Below, one piece after another: positions 2,636-14,451 of a stretch of 25,567 bases of DNA. Source of the stretch: a virus (Duplodnaviria > Heunggongvirae > Uroviricota > Caudoviricetes); IMG/VR virus record IMGVR_UViG_2925914267_000006, positions 1-25,567 of that record. The stretch is one strand, 5' to 3'. How positions within the stretch are numbered: position 1 is the first letter of the stretch; each line of letters starts with the position of its first letter. A program made the position numbers and the translations under genes. The notes under the pieces are model-generated. The model did not search any database. It was not told the origin of the DNA and was given only the letters and a program-made list of their open reading frames with translations.

Positions 2636-3111
2636 TATCTGCACTGCTCATTAATATACTTCTGGGTTCCTTCCAGTTGTTTTTGCATAGTGATCAGCCT
2701 CTCTCTGAGGGTGAAATAATCCCGTTCAGCGGTGTCTGCCAGTCGGGGGGAGGCTGCATTATCCACGCCGGAGGCGGTGGTGGCTTCACGCACTGACTGA
2801 CAGACTGCTTTGATGTGCAACCGACGACGACCAGCGGCAACATCATCACGCAGAGCATCATTTTCAGCTTTAGCATCAGCTAACTCCTTCGTGTATTTTG
2901 CATCGAGCGCAGCAACATCACGCTGACGCATCTGCATGTCAGTAATTGCCGCGTTCGCCAGCTTCAGTTCTCTGGCATTTTTGTCGCGCTGGGCTTTGTA
3001 GGTAATCGCGTTATCGCGGTAATGATTAACCGCCCATGAAAGGCAGACGATGACGCAGATAACCAGAGCATAAATAATCGCGGCGACTCTGCTCACTGAT
3101 CTATCCCCCAA
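2635..3111 (-). CDS. rzpD: Rz i-spanin (start uncertain, possibly GTG near 3096)
   Basis: Has an N-terminal transmembrane segment and a coiled-coil periplasmic domain, and matches RzpD as recalled. It overlaps the endolysin stop and contains Rz1 in another frame. Confidence 0.85.
2694..2876 (-). CDS. rzoD: Rz1 o-spanin lipoprotein embedded in Rz
   Basis: 60-aa ORF lying wholly inside Rz in another frame, with a lipobox (VVVGC) and a proline-rich stretch ([13 protein letters not shown]). Confidence 0.85.
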
Positions 3112-3626
3112 CAGGCTAATGCGCTTTCCTGGTCACGACGAATAACCTGTCCATAGCAGTTATTTGAACGTATGCGGCAATCGCGCCCACCATCTTTTAT
3201 CCACCAGCGAATCGCCTCGCATGCACCTTTACGATCACCGGCATTCAGCCGCTTATAAAACGTCGACGGGAAACACTTACCGGGGCCAATGTTATAGGGA
3301 CAAAATGACGCGATACCCGCTTTCTGTGGTTCGGTCAGTGGCACTTTAATATTGCGCTCCACCCATGCCAGCGCCTTATCCCGTTCAATGGCGTTAACCT
3401 GGTCGCATTTTTCCTTCGACAGTTTCATACCGGGAAAAACGGGTTTTCCATCCACCACCGTGGCACCCCGACAGATGGTCCAGATGCCGGAACCATCGCG
3501 GTATGCCGTTGTGTGGTTACCTTCTTTTTCATCCAGAAACTGGTCGAGAATATCAGGCGCAGGCGCACCGACGGCAATCAGTGCCAGAACGGCAGCCGAC
3601 AGGCCGTATCTGATTTTTGCGTTCAT
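3093..3626 (-). CDS. rrrD: SAR-endolysin (T4-type lysozyme fold with an N-terminal signal-anchor)
   Basis: The N-terminal hydrophobic SAR segment ([15 protein letters not shown]) is followed by an E-x8-D-x5-T catalytic pattern ([16 protein letters not shown]). It lies between the holin and Rz. Confidence 0.88.
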
Positions 3627-3969
3627 GGATATTTATCAGGATTTATCGGTTTCTGAACCCTGGATATGTTTATCTGTCCCGGCCTGTTGAATCAGGCAAG
3701 GAATAGTTAAATACAATAGAGAGGATTGTTTATGGACAATAGCACCATTTCTCTACAGGAGTTGCTCGACTGCATTTCCAAGCTTCGGGATGATGTAAAT
3801 GCCCTTACTGTCGCATTTTAATATCTGGCATTCTCAATTCCCAAGGAACAAATGCAACCAACACTGGCATCGCTCCAGCTTGAATCACTCAACCCCAAAT
3901 GGTCCCAGCAACAACAAAATTCTTTCAAGTGGCTGGCGGTATTACTGGAAGAAAAATATGCTGGTGAAA

Positions 3970-4314
3970 TTACCATTTCGGCGGAGTCTTCAGAGAACCA
4001 GTAATTCTTCCCGGTAGCTTTCCTTTGTAGGTTATCCACACATTCTGCGCCTCTAAAATTATGGGGCGCTTTTCCGGCGACAGCTCATCCCCTTCACATA
4101 ACCCGGCAGCAACATCCAGGAAGACCTGTCTGATGCTCCTTCTGGCTGCTGCCTCATAAAACTCCAGCGCGGCACCTTCAACACGGTCCAGCGAGATGTC
4201 CAGGTCAAAAATTTCACCGTCAAAGCGTTTTTTGTCCCGTAACGCTAAAGTTACCGTAACTTTATTCTCAAAATTGCGGATCCCTTTCACAATCAGTTCA
4301 TAGTTTTGAGTCAT
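3970..4314 (-). CDS. Hypothetical 114-aa protein inserted between pinholin and endolysin, possibly DUF1327/YdfR-like
   Basis: The start lies 4 nt after the holin stop, with a GGGGAGAG ribosome-binding site. A comparable holin - ydfR - lysozyme order exists in the Qin prophage by recall; the family assignment is unverified. Confidence 0.5.
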   Translation of the reverse strand: MTQNYELIVKGIRNFENKVTVTLALRDKKRFDGEIFDLDISLDRVEGAALEFYEAAARRSIRQVFLDVAAGLCEGDELSPEKRPIILEAQNVWITYKGKLPGRITGSLKTPPKW

Positions 4315-4318
4315 TGAA

Positions 4319-4534
4319 TTACTCTCCCCGTGCAGCCTTACGCTTGTCTTCTTTAATCTTGAAATAAAGGTTTGTCAGGTACGTCAGCAGGCCAAATACC
4401 AGGCTACCCAGCACACCTATTGCTGCCCACTGTGAGGGCGTGACTTTATCGAGCAGCTGTAAAAACCAGTAACCGGCACTACCTGCTGAGGTGCCATAGG
4501 CGACACCCGTTGTTAACTTATCCATGGATTTCAT
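4319..4534 (-). CDS. essD: Class II pinholin (phage 21 S21-like) with a dual-start motif
   Basis: 71-aa protein [26 protein letters not shown]... with two transmembrane segments and a charged C-terminus; it matches S21/EssD as recalled. Confidence 0.9.
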
Positions 4535-6352: not shown

Positions 6353-6386
6353 ATAACTTTTAGTAAATAATTGGCGTATTAATTAG

Positions 6387-7581
<1,195 letters not shown>

Positions 7582-7604
7582 TTAGTTGATTGTTATCTCT
7601 GACT

Positions 7605-8554: not shown

Positions 8555-9013
8555 TACGCCTCCTGCTTGTCGCGCAGCAGCTGAAACTCGCAGCTCTGTG
8601 GAATAGTCAGGTGGCAACCAATATTCATCGCCCAGGCTTCAACCTTACACAGGAAGACATACATCTCTCCGGTATCAAGATCGGAGGTATGGCGTAACGA
8701 CTGGATAGTGGTGATATCACCGGTTACGACATCAACCAGGTCTTTGGTTTCATAACCGAGATATGTGTGTTTGAGAGCATCTTTTACCCAAGCTGGAGTG
8801 GCGAACGTTTTACCCTTGCTGATGAGGTATTCACTGATTTCGCTGTACCACATGTGGCTGAGTGCATTCTGGGAAAGACTGCGTCTCTCGCGCCACGGTT
8901 TAAGCACCATGCGAAAGCATTTGCCGTCCTCCAGATAAGGCTGGATCTGCCGACCAATAGCGGTGAAGTTTGAGGTGTACTGGCAATAGCGGACACTACC
9001 ATTTGTTCTTTTT

Positions 9014-9832
9014 TTAAGCAGCCATCTGATGATATTTTTCCCTGAAGGCTGCCGGGGAGATATTCCCCAGACGAGAGTGACGACGCTGACGATTGTAGAA
9101 AATCTCAATGTATTCCCGTATTACTGAGATGGCTTCATCCCGGTTATTAAAACGATAGTGGCTCAGGCTCTCATTTTTCAGCGTTCCCCAGAAGCTTTCC
9201 ATCGGAGCGTTGTCGTAACAGTTACCTTTACGCGACATTGATGTTTTCAGACCAAACTGCTCCTGTATGACCCGGTAATCGTATGCGCAGTACTGTGAAC
9301 CTCGATCAGAGTGGTGGATTAGCCCGGCAGGTGGGCGCTGGCTCCTGAGCGCCATAAACAGGGCTTTACCTGTCAGCTCTTTTGTCATGCGCTCTCCCAT
9401 GGCGTAGCCGACAATTTCGCACGTATAAACATCTTTGATGCCAGCGAGGTACAACCATCCCTCCTGTGTGGCAACATACGTCAGGTCCGCCACCCAGACC
9501 TGATTTGGTGCTGTAGGAGCGAACGTCTGGTTCAGCAGATTTGGCGCAACTGGCAGATTGTGGTTCGAGTTCGTAGTCGCTCTGAACTTGCGTTTCTGCT
9601 TACAGCGTAGCCTTAGCTCCTTACGAAGACGTGCCAGTCGGTCACGACCAACGATGATGCCATTCTCTGCCAGCTCCGTCTGGAGCCGCCGGGTTCCATA
9701 TGTTTCGCGAGTGCGGATATGTGCCACCTTAATCTCCAGTTTTAGCCGCTCATCACTTTGTTTTCTGTCTGAGGGTTCATGCTGTACCCAGTTGTAATAA
9801 CCGCTCCTGGATACACCAAATACCTGACACAT
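9014..9832 (-). CDS. IS3-family transposase OrfB (DDE integrase core)
   Basis: 272-aa ORF with typical IS3-family OrfB motifs (WVADLTYV, HHSDRGSQY, YDNAPMESFWGTLK). Confidence 0.88.
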   Translation of the reverse strand: MCQVFGVSRSGYYNWVQHEPSDRKQSDERLKLEIKVAHIRTRETYGTRRLQTELAENGIIVGRDRLARLRKELRLRCKQKRKFRATTNSNHNLPVAPNLLNQTFAPTAPNQVWVADLTYVATQEGWLYLAGIKDVYTCEIVGYAMGERMTKELTGKALFMALRSQRPPAGLIHHSDRGSQYCAYDYRVIQEQFGLKTSMSRKGNCYDNAPMESFWGTLKNESLSHYRFNNRDEAISVIREYIEIFYNRQRRHSRLGNISPAAFREKYHQMAA

Positions 9833-9867
9833 CGCTTCAATGGGAAATTGTTGTCGCCATTGTTCGA

Positions 9868-10170
9868 TTAACGCGTATTTTTCAGCGACTCCTGTGCAAA
9901 ATACGCTGTTGCTTTTTTTAATATATCTCGCTCAAGGCGAGCTTCATTTAACGCCTTACGCAGTTGCAGAATTTCAGATTCCAGTTCAGCCACCGTGCGG
10001 GAACCAGGAGTACCGAGCCCTTTTCTGGCGGCGGTAACCCATTGCCCTAAAGTGCCTTCAGGAAGAGATAATCGGGAAGCGCCTTCACTGATCGAAAGTT
10101 GATTTTCAAGAACCGTTCTGACAGCTTCGGCTTTGAACTCTTTAGAGTAACGTTGGGTTTTTCTGCTCAT
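9868..10170 (-). CDS. IS3-family transposase OrfA (HTH plus leucine zipper)
   Basis: 100-aa ORF with an HTH and the C-terminal LERDILKKATAYFAQE zipper typical of IS3-family OrfA; an A AAA AAG slippery site lies near its 3' end. Confidence 0.85.
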   Translation of the reverse strand: MSRKTQRYSKEFKAEAVRTVLENQLSISEGASRLSLPEGTLGQWVTAARKGLGTPGSRTVAELESEILQLRKALNEARLERDILKKATAYFAQESLKNTR

Positions 10171-10309
10171 TATTAGCTCCTTCTGATGCCATTCTATTTC
10201 AGGAAGGAGTGTCCGTTAAACTCAGGCTACCTCAGTTACCGCGATGCAGTTTGATGCCATCTTGTGGGAAGTTCACGCTTCACCTCCGCAGAGATCAAAC
10301 GCTGGATGC

Positions 10310-10757: not shown

Positions 10758-11375
10758 CTAACGTTGTTTAATAACATTCTGACGCAAATGTGGCAATTGT
10801 ACTCGACTCCACTTATCATCCTGCCACGGCTGGAATTTTACATGTGCCGTTTCTCTGGCGAGGATTGCTCGCGCTCTGGTGAGTATCTGGGGATATTCTT
10901 GCTCGATGGAAGTGAAGCGACCAGCTTCACGATGCTCCGCAACCTGAAGAAGAGGAGTAACGTTCTGGCAGGCGGTTAACATCGCATCCCCAGCTCGCCA
11001 TAACCAAGCAAGTGTGCAAAGTTCGTTATCAGTGAATTGTTTTGTGATCGGGGATTGTTGAACTTCTCGATCGAGAATATCCAGAACCCAGCGGCGGAAC
11101 TCTTTGGCTACAGGAGTTCGTGCAAACATGGCGATCAAATGAGCTCCGCGAAGGCTAAATACTCGAGACTCCTGCATTCCACGAGGGGTGGTCACTTTGA
11201 CCACCCTTGTCATCATATCTGTAAATTCATCTGAGTGACGAGAGTAAATGCGCTGAACTGCTTTATCGTCCGCATATTCCAGAGCTAAACCAACTTCAGT
11301 GGCAGTAAGCCAAATTCTGTTATTGTGGCAAATTGGGGTAAACGTCGTTTTGTGGAATGCTAATTGAGTAGTCAT
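10758..11375 (-). CDS. Bro-N / antirepressor-like DNA-binding protein
   Basis: The N-terminal pattern (FHKTTFTPICHNNRIWLTATEVGLALEYADDKAVQRIY...RVFSLRGAHLIAMFARTPVAKEFRRWVLDIL) resembles Bro-N domains of phage antirepressors. Family assignment is from recall only. Confidence 0.55.
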   Translation of the reverse strand: MTTQLAFHKTTFTPICHNNRIWLTATEVGLALEYADDKAVQRIYSRHSDEFTDMMTRVVKVTTPRGMQESRVFSLRGAHLIAMFARTPVAKEFRRWVLDILDREVQQSPITKQFTDNELCTLAWLWRAGDAMLTACQNVTPLLQVAEHREAGRFTSIEQEYPQILTRARAILARETAHVKFQPWQDDKWSRVQLPHLRQNVIKQR

Positions 11376-11986: not shown

Positions 11987-12217
11987 TTAATTATTTTTCT
12001 TTAACTTGAAATTTCTTCCCATTGCTAGTGTTCTTCGAAGATTCGAATCATAAGCTGGTTGATAATATCTATCATAAAAATCCTTAATTGTCTGATGGTA
12101 AGTATCCAGCATCAAACCATAAAACCCCATGACCTTAAGATAATCCACCAAGGGAAATAAATAATCATCAGTCTGAACATCAGTATCAACATTATTTTTT
12201 TTGTTTTTTAACTTCAA
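11987..12217 (-). CDS. 76-aa ORF overlapping the 3' end of the STAND NTPase gene; possibly its frameshifted C-terminal extension
   Basis: TTG-initiated ORF in another frame relative to the NTPase; the two frames cross within an 8-nt A tract (T8 on the plus strand at about 12191-12198). AT-rich by eye. Confidence 0.35.
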   Translation of the reverse strand: MKLKNKKNNVDTDVQTDDYLFPLVDYLKVMGFYGLMLDTYHQTIKDFYDRYYQPAYDSNLRRTLAMGRNFKLKKNN

Positions 12218-13919
12218 ATTTGTATAAGTTTAACTCACCCTTATCCATCGTGCATGAAAAAAGGTCGTCAAAAATCAAATCAATTTTTGTCATAGGAACT
12301 CGTTCTTTTCCAGACATTATAGGTAGAATATCAATACCTAAGAGCGAACCTAATACAAAGTCGTAATGAAGCGAAATCACTGAGTCATTCGATGTCGAGT
12401 TGCCTTTGATAAATACTCTACTTAGTGCCGAGTCAAAAACATTCTCAACTCTCTCTCTCGTCATGTTTGCGACATCTACAACCCCCATATCACGAGAAGC
12501 TTTTATTGTGATTTCATCTATAAATGCTTTGGAATCTAGTGAATGTAAAAACAACATGAAGTTATCTAACTGTTCAGAGCATTTAATAGCCACCATAAGA
12601 TTTTCGTATATATCTTTTTTATACTCAATCGGTAAATTTGCTACCGCAAAAGCAGCATAAAATTCTTGCACTGATTTATGCAGAAAAACATACCTATTAT
12701 TTCCCTCAGGTTGGATAAGGCAAGTTATCTCAATAAGATCATCTATAAAGTTTGATGCATCTTCTTTAAGATAACCTTCTGTTTCAATAGCATCTTCAGC
12801 ATATCTAAGCAACTCCTCTCCCCAAAACTCAAATTTCTCCTCAATCAGTGCGTTATAGCAAATAGCTGAAAAACACAATTTAGCTTTTTCACCAATAATG
12901 TTTGATTTTTTCTCGCGCGTATATACTTTTATTTTATCATGCCTTGCATATAAGGTGTCAAAGAGGCTTCGATAAAACTCTATTATATTATTTGGAATAT
13001 CATTCATATAAGGATAACAATAATACAAAAGAGTAACTAAAATTGGATTGCAAATAGTTCCCTCAAGTTCTTCTTTATCACATAGTAAATCCGCCAAGAC
13101 TTTAAACGAGGCATCACTACTTGAGAATCTGTCATTTTTCGATAAAGAATGAAGAATACAAATCTTATCAGAAATATTTAGCTTATCTATAAAAATATTA
13201 TACACATCAGTAGTATAACATATATCTGTATTTGGTCTCGTTGTTGCGATAATTGGTGTGTTAAAATGATAATGAATGTTTTTTATTTCATTCATCATCA
13301 TAGTTCGCTCTTCATGTTTAACCTCATCAAATCCATCCAACATTAAAACGACTCTTTGGGATTGCAGTAATATTTTCAAGCTATCCTCTGAACACCCCAC
13401 ACCAAATGAATTAAGAATGTCTGCCAGATAAGCAATAATATTTGCATTCTTCACCCTTCTTAATTCAATAAAAAAAGGTATCCGTTCTGATTTTTTTATT
13501 TCCTCGCTAAACAACTTGCGTAAAATAGTACTTTTCCCTTGCCCCGCTATACCGACTATATTTACAATACCATGAAATGGTAAAGTGACCCCATCTTTTA
13601 TAACGACCTTGTCTTTATTAGATGCCACCTCAACAGTTAACGGATAATAAATATCATCTAAAAAAATATCATAATCAGCGTTGTGCAAAGTTCTCATTTT
13701 CAGAGATGGTAGCACATGCTTTCTTAAATAATTTTCTCTCCCGAGGGGATCATTTAATTGTTCGAGTATAACCTTGCCTTCATCTAGGTCCCTAGCCCAA
13801 GGTTTAGAGAGCAATACTTCTGTTATTTTTTCCGCAGCTTTTCCTACTGTGCTATTAATAATAGTCGCAAGAAACTCATCCATTTTTTCACCACATTCAT
13901 TAACCAATACGTGGTGCAT
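12192..13919 (-). CDS. STAND-class P-loop NTPase (NACHT-like), candidate antiphage or abortive-infection protein
   Basis: Walker A (GIAGQGKST), Walker B of NACHT type (VVLMLDGFDEV) and a TTRP motif (IIATTRP) at NACHT-like spacing. Both the gene and its flanks look AT-rich by eye. The start is uncertain: ATG at 13919 or 13883, with the track's TTG at 13940. Confidence 0.7.
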   Translation of the reverse strand: MHHVLVNECGEKMDEFLATIINSTVGKAAEKITEVLLSKPWARDLDEGKVILEQLNDPLGRENYLRKHVLPSLKMRTLHNADYDIFLDDIYYPLTVEVASNKDKVVIKDGVTLPFHGIVNIVGIAGQGKSTILRKLFSEEIKKSERIPFFIELRRVKNANIIAYLADILNSFGVGCSEDSLKILLQSQRVVLMLDGFDEVKHEERTMMMNEIKNIHYHFNTPIIATTRPNTDICYTTDVYNIFIDKLNISDKICILHSLSKNDRFSSSDASFKVLADLLCDKEELEGTICNPILVTLLYYCYPYMNDIPNNIIEFYRSLFDTLYARHDKIKVYTREKKSNIIGEKAKLCFSAICYNALIEEKFEFWGEELLRYAEDAIETEGYLKEDASNFIDDLIEITCLIQPEGNNRYVFLHKSVQEFYAAFAVANLPIEYKKDIYENLMVAIKCSEQLDNFMLFLHSLDSKAFIDEITIKASRDMGVVDVANMTRERVENVFDSALSRVFIKGNSTSNDSVISLHYDFVLGSLLGIDILPIMSGKERVPMTKIDLIFDDLFSCTMDKGELNLYKFEVKKQKK

Positions 13920-14271
13920 TCTTACAAGACTCAGTAACAATTGTCAATCATAGGTTTTCGCATGATTGCAAAACGCCATAAACAATTGTAGCACCATAAT
14001 TTTAAACACTATATAATATACAACCTTCCTACAAGCATTCAGTACATCGCTTAATCACAGGGCTTGAATATATAGTAAGGAATCGATATTAATCACCTCA
14101 TCTACTTTAAACATCTTACACACCTATAATTTATAATAGTCAACACGAGGTCATCATATTAAACATGCAATTACAAACATTCATTTTTATATAAATTTTC
14201 ATGATTTAACCGTAGAGCGACGGTAATAAATTTCATATACAAGGATTTAAGCTCCCATACGTTTTCTATTA

Positions 14272-14451
14272 TTAAAAATAACATACCGTTCGCCAGACCT
14301 TACCATCAATGACCAGGATTCCTGCCCGCGCCATTTTTGCCGCAGCCTGATTTATGCTGGTTAATGTCACACCTGTTGTCGCAGCAACGTCCGGCGCACA
14401 GAAGCTCTTGTGCGTCCCCAGGTAATGAATAATTGCTTCTTTTCCCGTCAT
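14272..14451 (-). pseudogene. ren: Truncated ren (59 codons, lambda Ren is 96 aa)
   Basis: Hand translation gives MTGKEAIIHYLGTHKSFCAPDVAATTGVTLTSINQAAAKMARAGILVIDGKVWRTVCYF*, matching the N-terminal part of lambda Ren. The ATG overlaps the P stop, and the frame ends where the AT-rich island begins. Confidence 0.75.

What the first reader, a model, noticed from the sequence alone, without database searches (positions are those of the whole stretch)
12180..12225. Homopolymeric A8/T8 tract at the junction of the NTPase ORF and the 76-aa ORF, a possible frameshift or phase switch
The NTPase frame ends ...FEVKKQKK* inside the minus-strand sequence gaagttaaaaaacaaaaaaaataatg. The overlapping 76-aa ORF reads the same nucleotides in another frame (KLKNKKNNVD...). 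Deleting one A from the 8-nt run would fuse the NTPase to about 68 further residues rich in Tyr and Asp. This could be a sequencing error at a homopolymer, a decaying gene, programmed frameshifting or slipped-strand phase variation.
Basis: seen in the sequence. Interest (0 to 1): 0.6.

Follow-up and report, generated by a model that had tools for sequence, protein, structure and literature searches.

The report
Frameshifted prophage NACHT defence gene
One extra A in a run of seven A's cuts the last 68 residues off a prophage-borne NLR-like (NACHT) anti-phage gene that is intact in every other copy found, so this is an ordinary inactivating frameshift, not a programmed one.

Summary
On the minus strand, 12202-12195 is A8. 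The NACHT ORF (ATG 13883, 563 aa) stops at TAA 12194-12192, and the +1 frame runs on to 11987.

The interpretation narrows to one option. All 16 near-identical copies found elsewhere carry A7 and encode one intact 631-aa NACHT protein. These are 8 complete E. coli genomes, 7 viral contigs and 1 metagenome contig. Homologues from 85% down to 32% identity are all about 620-650 aa. In the more distant homologues Pfam SNaCT1 runs from about residue 440 to the C-terminus, so the shift falls inside that sensor domain. The tail is under purifying selection in the fused frame (dN/dS 0.14, against 0.10 for the rest of the gene). The tract is absent from a 67% homologue, and long runs are not enriched in the gene.

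The same truncation occurs in a second protein allele recorded from other assemblies. Only this run, out of 24 homopolymer runs in 14.4 kb, differs from the closest relative. I therefore read it as a real, heritable A7→A8 insertion in a decaying DLP12-type prophage and a probable loss of function, because a 7-residue C-terminal deletion abolishes bNACHT11 defence. A sequencing error remains possible. Programmed frameshifting and phase variation are unsupported. Interest is low.

The parts
12195..12202 (-). A8 homopolymer (T8 on the + strand). The ancestral state is A7, and the extra A is the frameshifting lesion.
   Evidence: for the sequence. Searches show A7 in 16 of 16 other near-identical copies.
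12192..13883 (-). Truncated NACHT ORF of 563 aa plus TAA. The product is identical to WP_164543894.1.
   Evidence: Pfam NACHT PF05729, E = 3e-11.
11987..12196 (-). Out-of-frame (+1) remainder of the same gene: 69 codons (NNVDTD...KLKKNN) plus a stop. This is the last third of the SNaCT1-type C-terminal domain.
   Evidence: fused in relatives. (aligned through to the C-terminus in 29 homologues). (weak SNaCT1 match, profile 120-169 of 184). (dN/dS 0.14 in this frame; 3-12 stops in the other two frames).
13527..13553 (-). Walker A / P-loop, GIAGQGKST (residues 111-119).
   Evidence: Invariant columns G111, A113, G114, Q115, G116, K117, S118 and T119 in alignment A1.
13230..13565 (-). Core of the NACHT NTPase module (Pfam match to residues 107-218).
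   Evidence: The model's best structural matches are NLRC4, NOD2 and NLRP3.
12197..12563 (-). The part of the SNaCT1-equivalent domain (from about residue 441) that is still in frame with the NACHT module.
   Evidence: Mapped through alignment A1 from homologues in which PF22710 covers residue 440 to the C-terminus.
13918..13947 (-). Promoter-like site, TTGACA-18 nt-(TG)AAGAAT, just upstream of the start codon. This is a consensus match only.

Best explanation
The window carries a mutant allele of a single gene. The gene is a prophage-borne 'short' bacterial NACHT (NLR-related) anti-phage protein of the bNACHT01/bNACHT11 type. It has a short N-terminal region, a NACHT NTPase module and a C-terminal SNaCT1-type sensor and oligomerisation domain.

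Replication slippage added one A to an A7 run (AAA AAA CAA AAA AAT AAT). This created an immediate TAA stop and put the last 69 codons out of frame. The lesion is a real, heritable mutation carried in an E. coli lineage, not a recoding signal.

The 563-aa product lacks one beta-strand, a short helix, the long C-terminal helix and the C-terminal tail of the sensor domain. It is therefore most likely unable to assemble and defend. The gene is a young pseudogene in a degrading DLP12-type prophage.

Shown here: the lesion, the intact ancestral state, the domain position and the coding constraint on the tail. Inferred: that the mutation is real rather than a base-calling error, and that it causes loss of function.
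For: 1. All 16 other near-identical copies have A7 and one uninterrupted 631-aa ORF. These are 8 complete E. coli genomes, 7 IMG/VR contigs and 1 metagenome contig, with tract lengths read and intact ORFs confirmed.

2. In the 90% protein cluster of 382 member sequences, of which 40 were read, full-length forms dominate: 643 aa on 309 contigs, and 631 aa on 60 and 57 contigs.

3. Homologues at 85% down to 32% identity are 620-650 aa and cover about 100% of the repaired protein. In the more distant homologues PF22710 SNaCT1 spans residue 440 to the last residues, so the shift at residue 563 lies inside that domain. The 76-aa ORF hits SNaCT1 profile positions 120-169 of 184.

4. Against the 85% homologue, the tail has dN/dS 0.14 at dS 0.77, against 0.10 for codons 1-563.

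5. The AlphaFold2 model of the intact protein has pLDDT 88.5. The shift maps to a low-confidence loop. The removed part is strand 583-589, helix 590-596 and helix 600-636, all predicted with confidence.

6. Evidence that the mutation is real:
- A second 563-aa allele ends identically in ...KKQKK but has M134 where the window has I134. It is P0009 (WP_074638485.1, OKV61166.1, HAN6358612.1), recorded on 2 contigs.
- Over 14.4 kb aligned to strain STEC17-190, only this one of 24 homopolymer runs of 6 or more differs in length.

7. Evidence of prophage decay: an IS3-family element sits inside ybcN at 8971-10233. The same NACHT gene carries an independent T7→T8 frameshift in strain 2014C-4135.

8. 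Evidence for loss of function: deleting only residues 633-639 of bNACHT11 abolished oligomerisation and defence (10.1101/2024.12.17.629029).
Against: No reads are available, so a homopolymer base-calling error in this one assembly cannot be excluded. The exact 563-aa sequence is recorded from a single 4.8-Mb contig. Loss of function is extrapolated from bNACHT11. I did not have the bNACHT11 sequence and so did not measure how closely it is related; by size I take it to belong with the 639-aa homologues at about 40% identity. The window protein itself does not reach Pfam's SNaCT1 threshold.
Confidence: 0.78

Rival explanations
1. Sequencing or assembly error. The strain really has A7 and an intact gene, and the extra A is a homopolymer miscall in this assembly.
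For: A8 was seen in none of 16 other DNA copies. The exact product is on record from one contig only, a 4.8-Mb chromosome-sized contig that probably comes from long reads. Homopolymers are the classic site of long-read indel errors (general knowledge).
Against: The other 23 homopolymer runs of 6 or more in 14.4 kb agree in length with the closest relative, including five A7/T7 runs. The only other clean indel is an in-frame 3-nt insertion. A different protein allele with the same ...KKQKK end exists under three accessions from other assemblies. The window allele also carries three private substitutions (13740, 13479, 12190), so it is a distinct lineage.
Confidence: 0.12
2. Slipped-strand phase variation. 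The A7/A8 tract is a reversible ON/OFF switch for a costly abortive-infection gene.
For: At least two homopolymer frameshift alleles of this gene exist: A8 here and in P0009, and T8 in strain 2014C-4135. A 488-aa N-terminally disrupted product also occurs on a second allele background. In principle A8 can revert to A7 by slippage.
Against: The tract is short. 16 of 16 other copies are A7. OFF forms are rare among the 40 cluster members read: 3 contigs with the 563-aa form against more than 400 contigs with full-length forms. Long runs are not enriched over synonymous shuffles, and no run of 8 or more exists in the intact allele, where 0.9 is expected. The tract is lost in a 67% homologue.
Confidence: 0.06
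3. Programmed or adventitious recoding. A +1 ribosomal slip on AAA AAA before TAA, or loss of one A by transcriptional slippage, restores a useful amount of full-length protein from the A8 allele.
For: A +1 slip of tRNA-Lys from the first AAA would re-pair perfectly and give exactly the wild-type ...KKQKNNV... sequence (read). A stop codon in the A site can favour +1 shifts (general knowledge, as in prfB). Rescue of poly(A) frameshifts by slippage is known in other systems (PMC1088944; PMC4256274, listed).
Against: No relative needs recoding, because all are in frame. The site is not conserved. In many bacterial genomes selection against A/T runs becomes evident at 9 nt (PMC1088944). The E. 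coli RNA polymerase reporter gave no rescue by deletion on the poly(A) runs tested (PMC6260861). The TAA is followed by T, which I recall as an efficient termination context (own knowledge, not checked here).
Confidence: 0.03
4. Two genuine genes: a shorter NACHT protein plus an independent 76-aa protein.
For: The 76-aa ORF has a TTG start and is open.
Against: The exact 76-aa product is not in a collection of 15 billion proteins. Its sequence is simply the C-terminus of the intact protein in all relatives.
Confidence: 0.01

Closest known systems
bNACHT01 / bNACHT11-type 'short NACHT' proteins (clade 14 of bacterial NLR-related proteins; Kibby et al., 10.1101/2022.07.19.500537; bNACHT11 structure paper, 10.1101/2024.12.17.629029)
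   Same: The size when repaired is about 630 aa. It has a short N-terminal region with no enzymatic domain, a NACHT module with an invariant Walker A, and a variable C-terminal domain that homologues match as Pfam SNaCT1. It occurs in Enterobacterales, Vibrionaceae and Aeromonas. The predicted fold is NLR-like.
   Different: This copy is frameshifted inside the SNaCT domain and lacks the last 68 residues. The window sequence itself does not reach the SNaCT1 Pfam threshold. It has no PADLOC hit. Anti-phage activity of this particular subfamily has not been tested.
Intact alleles of the same gene (WP_024239936.1, WP_044862916.1, WP_047659229.1, WP_414776999.1: 'NACHT domain-containing protein', 631 aa) in DLP12-type prophages of E. 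coli
   Same: DNA identity is 99.5-99.8%. The position is the same, between a truncated ren and the P22AR-C gene, in the same type of prophage.
   Different: They have A7 instead of A8. The window also has private changes M134I, a change at 13740 (third position of a Gly codon, taken as silent) and I→V at 12190.
Frameshift rescue at poly(A) tracts (Citrobacter rodentium tssM, Shigella mxiE, Thermus dnaX, IS elements)
   Same: A homopolymer lies at the junction of two overlapping frames whose fusion gives the functional protein.
   Different: Those sites have runs of 9 or more (IS elements of two other species have 8) and are conserved out of frame among relatives (PMC1088944). Here the relatives are in frame, and the run is 8 A's, on which E. 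coli RNA polymerase showed no deletion slippage in the reporter study.

Membership tests
Clade-14 bacterial NACHT (bNACHT01/11-like, short NACHT + SNaCT) | NACHT NTPase module with a Walker A lysine | tested here: met
   PF05729, E = 3e-11, 43.8 bits against a cut-off of 26.7. GIAGQGKST is invariant in 30 homologues. Foldseek matches NLRC4 at 1e-12, then NOD2 and NLRP3.
Clade-14 bacterial NACHT (bNACHT01/11-like, short NACHT + SNaCT) | Short C-terminal SNaCT domain in place of repeats (LRR, TPR, WD40) | tested here: inconclusive
   Homologues that align end to end with the repaired protein carry PF22710 over residue 440 to the C-terminus, with E from 3e-50 to 4e-6. The window's own sequence gives only E = 0.043 on the 76-aa piece and nothing on the repaired protein. 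In the window the domain is split by the frameshift.
Clade-14 bacterial NACHT (bNACHT01/11-like, short NACHT + SNaCT) | No enzymatic N-terminal effector domain, only a short helical N-terminus | tested here: met
   Residues 1-100 have no Pfam hit. The model shows helices 15-73 (numbering of the 643-aa form) ahead of the NTPase.
Clade-14 bacterial NACHT (bNACHT01/11-like, short NACHT + SNaCT) | Protects against phage by abortive infection | not testable with these tools
   Known only for bNACHT01 and bNACHT11 in the literature.
Programmed ribosomal frameshift site | The out-of-frame arrangement and the slippery site are conserved among homologues | tested here: not met
   16 of 16 near-identical copies and all more distant homologues are in one frame. 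The 67% homologue reads AATGTTAAGAGATCTCAG at this place.
Transcriptional-slippage recoding site | An A/T run long enough for the host RNA polymerase to slip productively | not tested
   Literature only. Selection against A/T runs becomes evident at 9 nt in many bacterial genomes (PMC1088944). The E. coli RNA polymerase reporter showed no detectable deletion slippage on the poly(A) runs examined (PMC6260861). The run here is A8.
Homopolymer phase-variable contingency locus | Tract length is polymorphic among close relatives, and mutable tracts are enriched or maintained | tested here: not met
   A7 in 16 of 16 other copies. Among the 40 cluster members read, the 563-aa forms sit on 3 contigs against more than 400 contigs with full-length forms. 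Runs of 7 or more are not enriched (P = 0.27), and the intact allele has no run of 8 or more.

The most novel reading that the evidence does not exclude
The A/T7 runs of this A+T-rich abortive-infection gene could act as low-frequency reversible switches. Lineages would then silence a costly NLR-like suicide sensor (A8 or T8) and re-awaken it by back-slippage under phage pressure. Alternatively, the tail-less 563-aa protein could be kept because it has its own activity, for example dominant-negative control of a second bNACHT. The recurrence of homopolymer frameshifts on more than one allele background is the only hint.
Probability: 0.06. Interest if true: 0.55.

Novelty: already known. Interest (0 to 1): 0.12.

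Why it matters
It matters mainly for annotation. The 563-aa 'NACHT domain-containing protein' (WP_164543894.1) and the 76-aa ORF should be read as one frameshifted gene, and this strain should not be counted as holding a working bNACHT system. More widely, it is a small example of how horizontally acquired, A+T-rich defence genes in prophages are lost through homopolymer slippage, here alongside IS insertion elsewhere in the same prophage. If the tract proved to be a reversible switch, it would be a modest addition to the ways defence systems are regulated, but nothing here points that way.

Tried and rejected
- PADLOC models gave no hit for the repaired protein.
- GenBank phages (INPHARED) gave no megablast match to the gene.
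- A PDB sequence search gave no hit. The bNACHT11 entry 9ORF named in the paper is apparently not in the copy searched.
- The scan of genome contigs with the family alignment returned only distant relatives (25-43% identity, mostly the NACHT module). It was no help for the tract.
- The look-up of encoding contigs found no record for the window's 563-aa product.
The 99%-identical intact representative P0002 was used instead.
- A -1 ribosomal frameshift on A_AAA_AAA was considered and rejected. The downstream ORF is in the +1 frame, so a -1 shift would not join the two (read).
- A terminator or promoter between the two ORFs was considered. Only weak consensus matches were found.

Full report
**1. 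The observation**

The minus strand reads ...AAA TTT GAA GTT AAA AAA CAA AAA AAA TAA TGT TGA TAC.... The run of eight A's is at window 12202-12195, which is T8 on the + strand. The large ORF ends ...FEVKKQKK with TAA at 12194-12192. The 76-aa ORF (11987-12217) reads the same bases in the +1 frame. Removing one A in silico joins the two into a 631-aa protein, against 563 aa for the truncated one.

One correction concerns the start. The ORF listing opens the ORF at TTG 13940, but homologues begin at MDEF/MDPL and RefSeq annotates the equivalent ATG, window 13883.

**2. What the gene is**

- The ORF has a NACHT NTPase module (PF05729, E = 3e-11) with an invariant Walker A, GIAGQGKST.
- A search of 5.8 billion proteins found homologues from 99% down to 32% identity in Enterobacterales, Vibrionaceae, Aeromonas and others. 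Nearly all are 620-650 aa and cover about 100% of the repaired protein.
[quoted passage not shown] In the alignment this maps to about residues 441-631 of the repaired protein.
- The 76-aa ORF alone gives a weak SNaCT1 hit at profile positions 120-169, which is where the alignment puts it.
- An AlphaFold2 model of the 99%-identical intact protein is confident (pLDDT 88.5, pTM 0.87). It most resembles NLRC4, NOD2 and NLRP3.
- This is the architecture of clade 14 of bacterial NLR-related proteins (bNACHT01 and bNACHT11). In those proteins the SNaCT domain senses phage proteins and helps assemble a heptamer.

**3. Where the gene sits**

- The window is a DLP12-type lambdoid prophage, with intD next to tRNA-Arg and fimZ in the closest relative.
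- The NACHT gene lies between a truncated ren and a P22AR-C gene in every locus.
- Other prophages of this type have a DUF4041 gene in the same place, so this is a typical accessory (moron or defence) slot.
- The gene is 33% G+C against 46% for the window.

**4. Is the broken state the norm?**

No. Only 8 of 5,426 complete E. coli genomes carry the gene, at 99.5-99.8% identity, and all 8 have A7. A pattern that allows any tract length found 7 viral contigs and 1 metagenome contig, all with A7. Wherever the whole gene was present in these loci, the ORF was uninterrupted. In the protein cluster of 382 member sequences (40 read), full-length forms dominate: 643 aa on 309 contigs and 631 aa on 60 and 57 contigs.

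The tail has evolved as coding sequence in the fused frame. Against the 85% homologue it has dN/dS 0.14 at dS 0.77, compared with 0.10 for codons 1-563. The other two frames of the tail contain 3-12 stops.

The ancestral and functional state is therefore a single 631-aa protein, and the window carries a +1 insertion.

**5. Is it a recoding signal or a switch?**

- The 85% homologue keeps an in-frame A7-C-A7 sequence. The 67% homologue has no tract at all (AATGTTAAGAGATCTCAG). At protein level this position is a variable linker with indels.
- The intact allele has four A/T runs of 7 or more and none of 8 or more. Synonymous-codon shuffles give 2.8 +/- 1.25 and 0.9 respectively. Mutable tracts are not enriched.
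- A -1 ribosomal slip would enter the wrong frame. A +1 slip is chemically conceivable but has no comparative support.
- In many bacterial genomes selection against A/T runs becomes evident at 9 nt (PMC1088944). In a reporter study E. coli RNA polymerase gave no detectable rescue by deletion on the poly(A) runs tested (PMC6260861).

I found no evidence for programmed frameshifting or for classical phase variation.

**6. Real mutation or sequencing error?**

Without reads this cannot be settled, but three observations favour a real mutation.

- The cluster holds a second 563-aa sequence that ends in the same ...KKQKK but has M134 where the window has I134. It is recorded under three accessions and on 2 contigs. 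The truncation is therefore not unique to this assembly.
- Over 14.4 kb aligned to strain STEC17-190 at 97.5% identity or more, the window has 24 homopolymer runs of 6 or more, and only this one differs in length. The only other clean indel is an in-frame 3-nt insertion. The assembly is not indel-ridden.
- The window allele has three private substitutions, so it is a separate lineage. It plausibly descends from the M134 A8 allele.

**7. Consequence**

The model places the shift in a low-confidence loop (residues 574-582 of the 643-aa form). The lost part is a beta-strand (583-589), a short helix (590-596) and the long C-terminal helix (600-636) with its tail. In bNACHT11, removing only the last seven residues prevented oligomerisation and abolished defence. 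By analogy the 563-aa product is probably inactive. This is an inference and was not tested.

The prophage shows other decay. An IS3-family element sits inside ybcN at 8971-10233. The same NACHT gene has an independent T7→T8 frameshift in strain 2014C-4135. A 488-aa N-terminally disrupted product is recorded on 8 contigs on another allele background.

**8. Verdict**

This is an ordinary homopolymer frameshift that inactivates, or appears to inactivate, a known kind of prophage defence gene. My confidence that it is a real heritable lesion is 0.78, with sequencing error at 0.12 and a switch or recoding together below 0.1. Novelty: already known. Interest is low.

Noticed in passing
window 8971-10233: A 1,263-bp insert is absent from the related prophages. 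It is an IS3-family element (orfA 9868-10170, orfB 9014-9832, minus strand). It lies about 40 nt into ybcN, and the two alignment blocks overlap by 4 bases at the junction, consistent with a short target duplication.
   Followed up: partly
window 13470-13476 (equivalent site in L002, 6525-6532): E. coli 2014C-4135 has T8 instead of T7 at this run. This splits the same NACHT gene into 139-aa and 488-aa ORFs, an independent homopolymer frameshift. A 488-aa product on 8 other contigs (P0006) differs from it at 3 residues, so an N-terminal disruption also exists on a second allele background. Its DNA could not be fetched.
   Followed up: partly
window 10797-10799: There is an in-frame 3-nt insertion (CAA on the minus strand) near the 3' end of the P22AR C-terminal-domain gene (10758-11375). 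It is absent from all relatives compared.
   Followed up: no
window 14272-14451, and L001-L008: The ren gene is truncated next to the NACHT gene in every locus. Other DLP12-type prophages carry a DUF4041 gene at this position, which suggests an exchangeable defence or moron slot between ren and the nin genes.
   Followed up: partly
window 12190, 13479, 13740: Three substitutions are private to the window allele. 12190 changes I→V in the now untranslated tail, 13479 gives M134I, and 13740 falls at the third position of a Gly codon and is taken as silent. This fits a distinct lineage, possibly under relaxed constraint after the frameshift. The number is too small to test.
   Followed up: no
window 6386-7582 and 3095-4332: These segments do not align with the closest relative STEC17-190. 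The region around the Q antiterminator (ORF 6521-7513, 330 aa) and the part next to the lysis genes are mosaic replacements.
   Followed up: no
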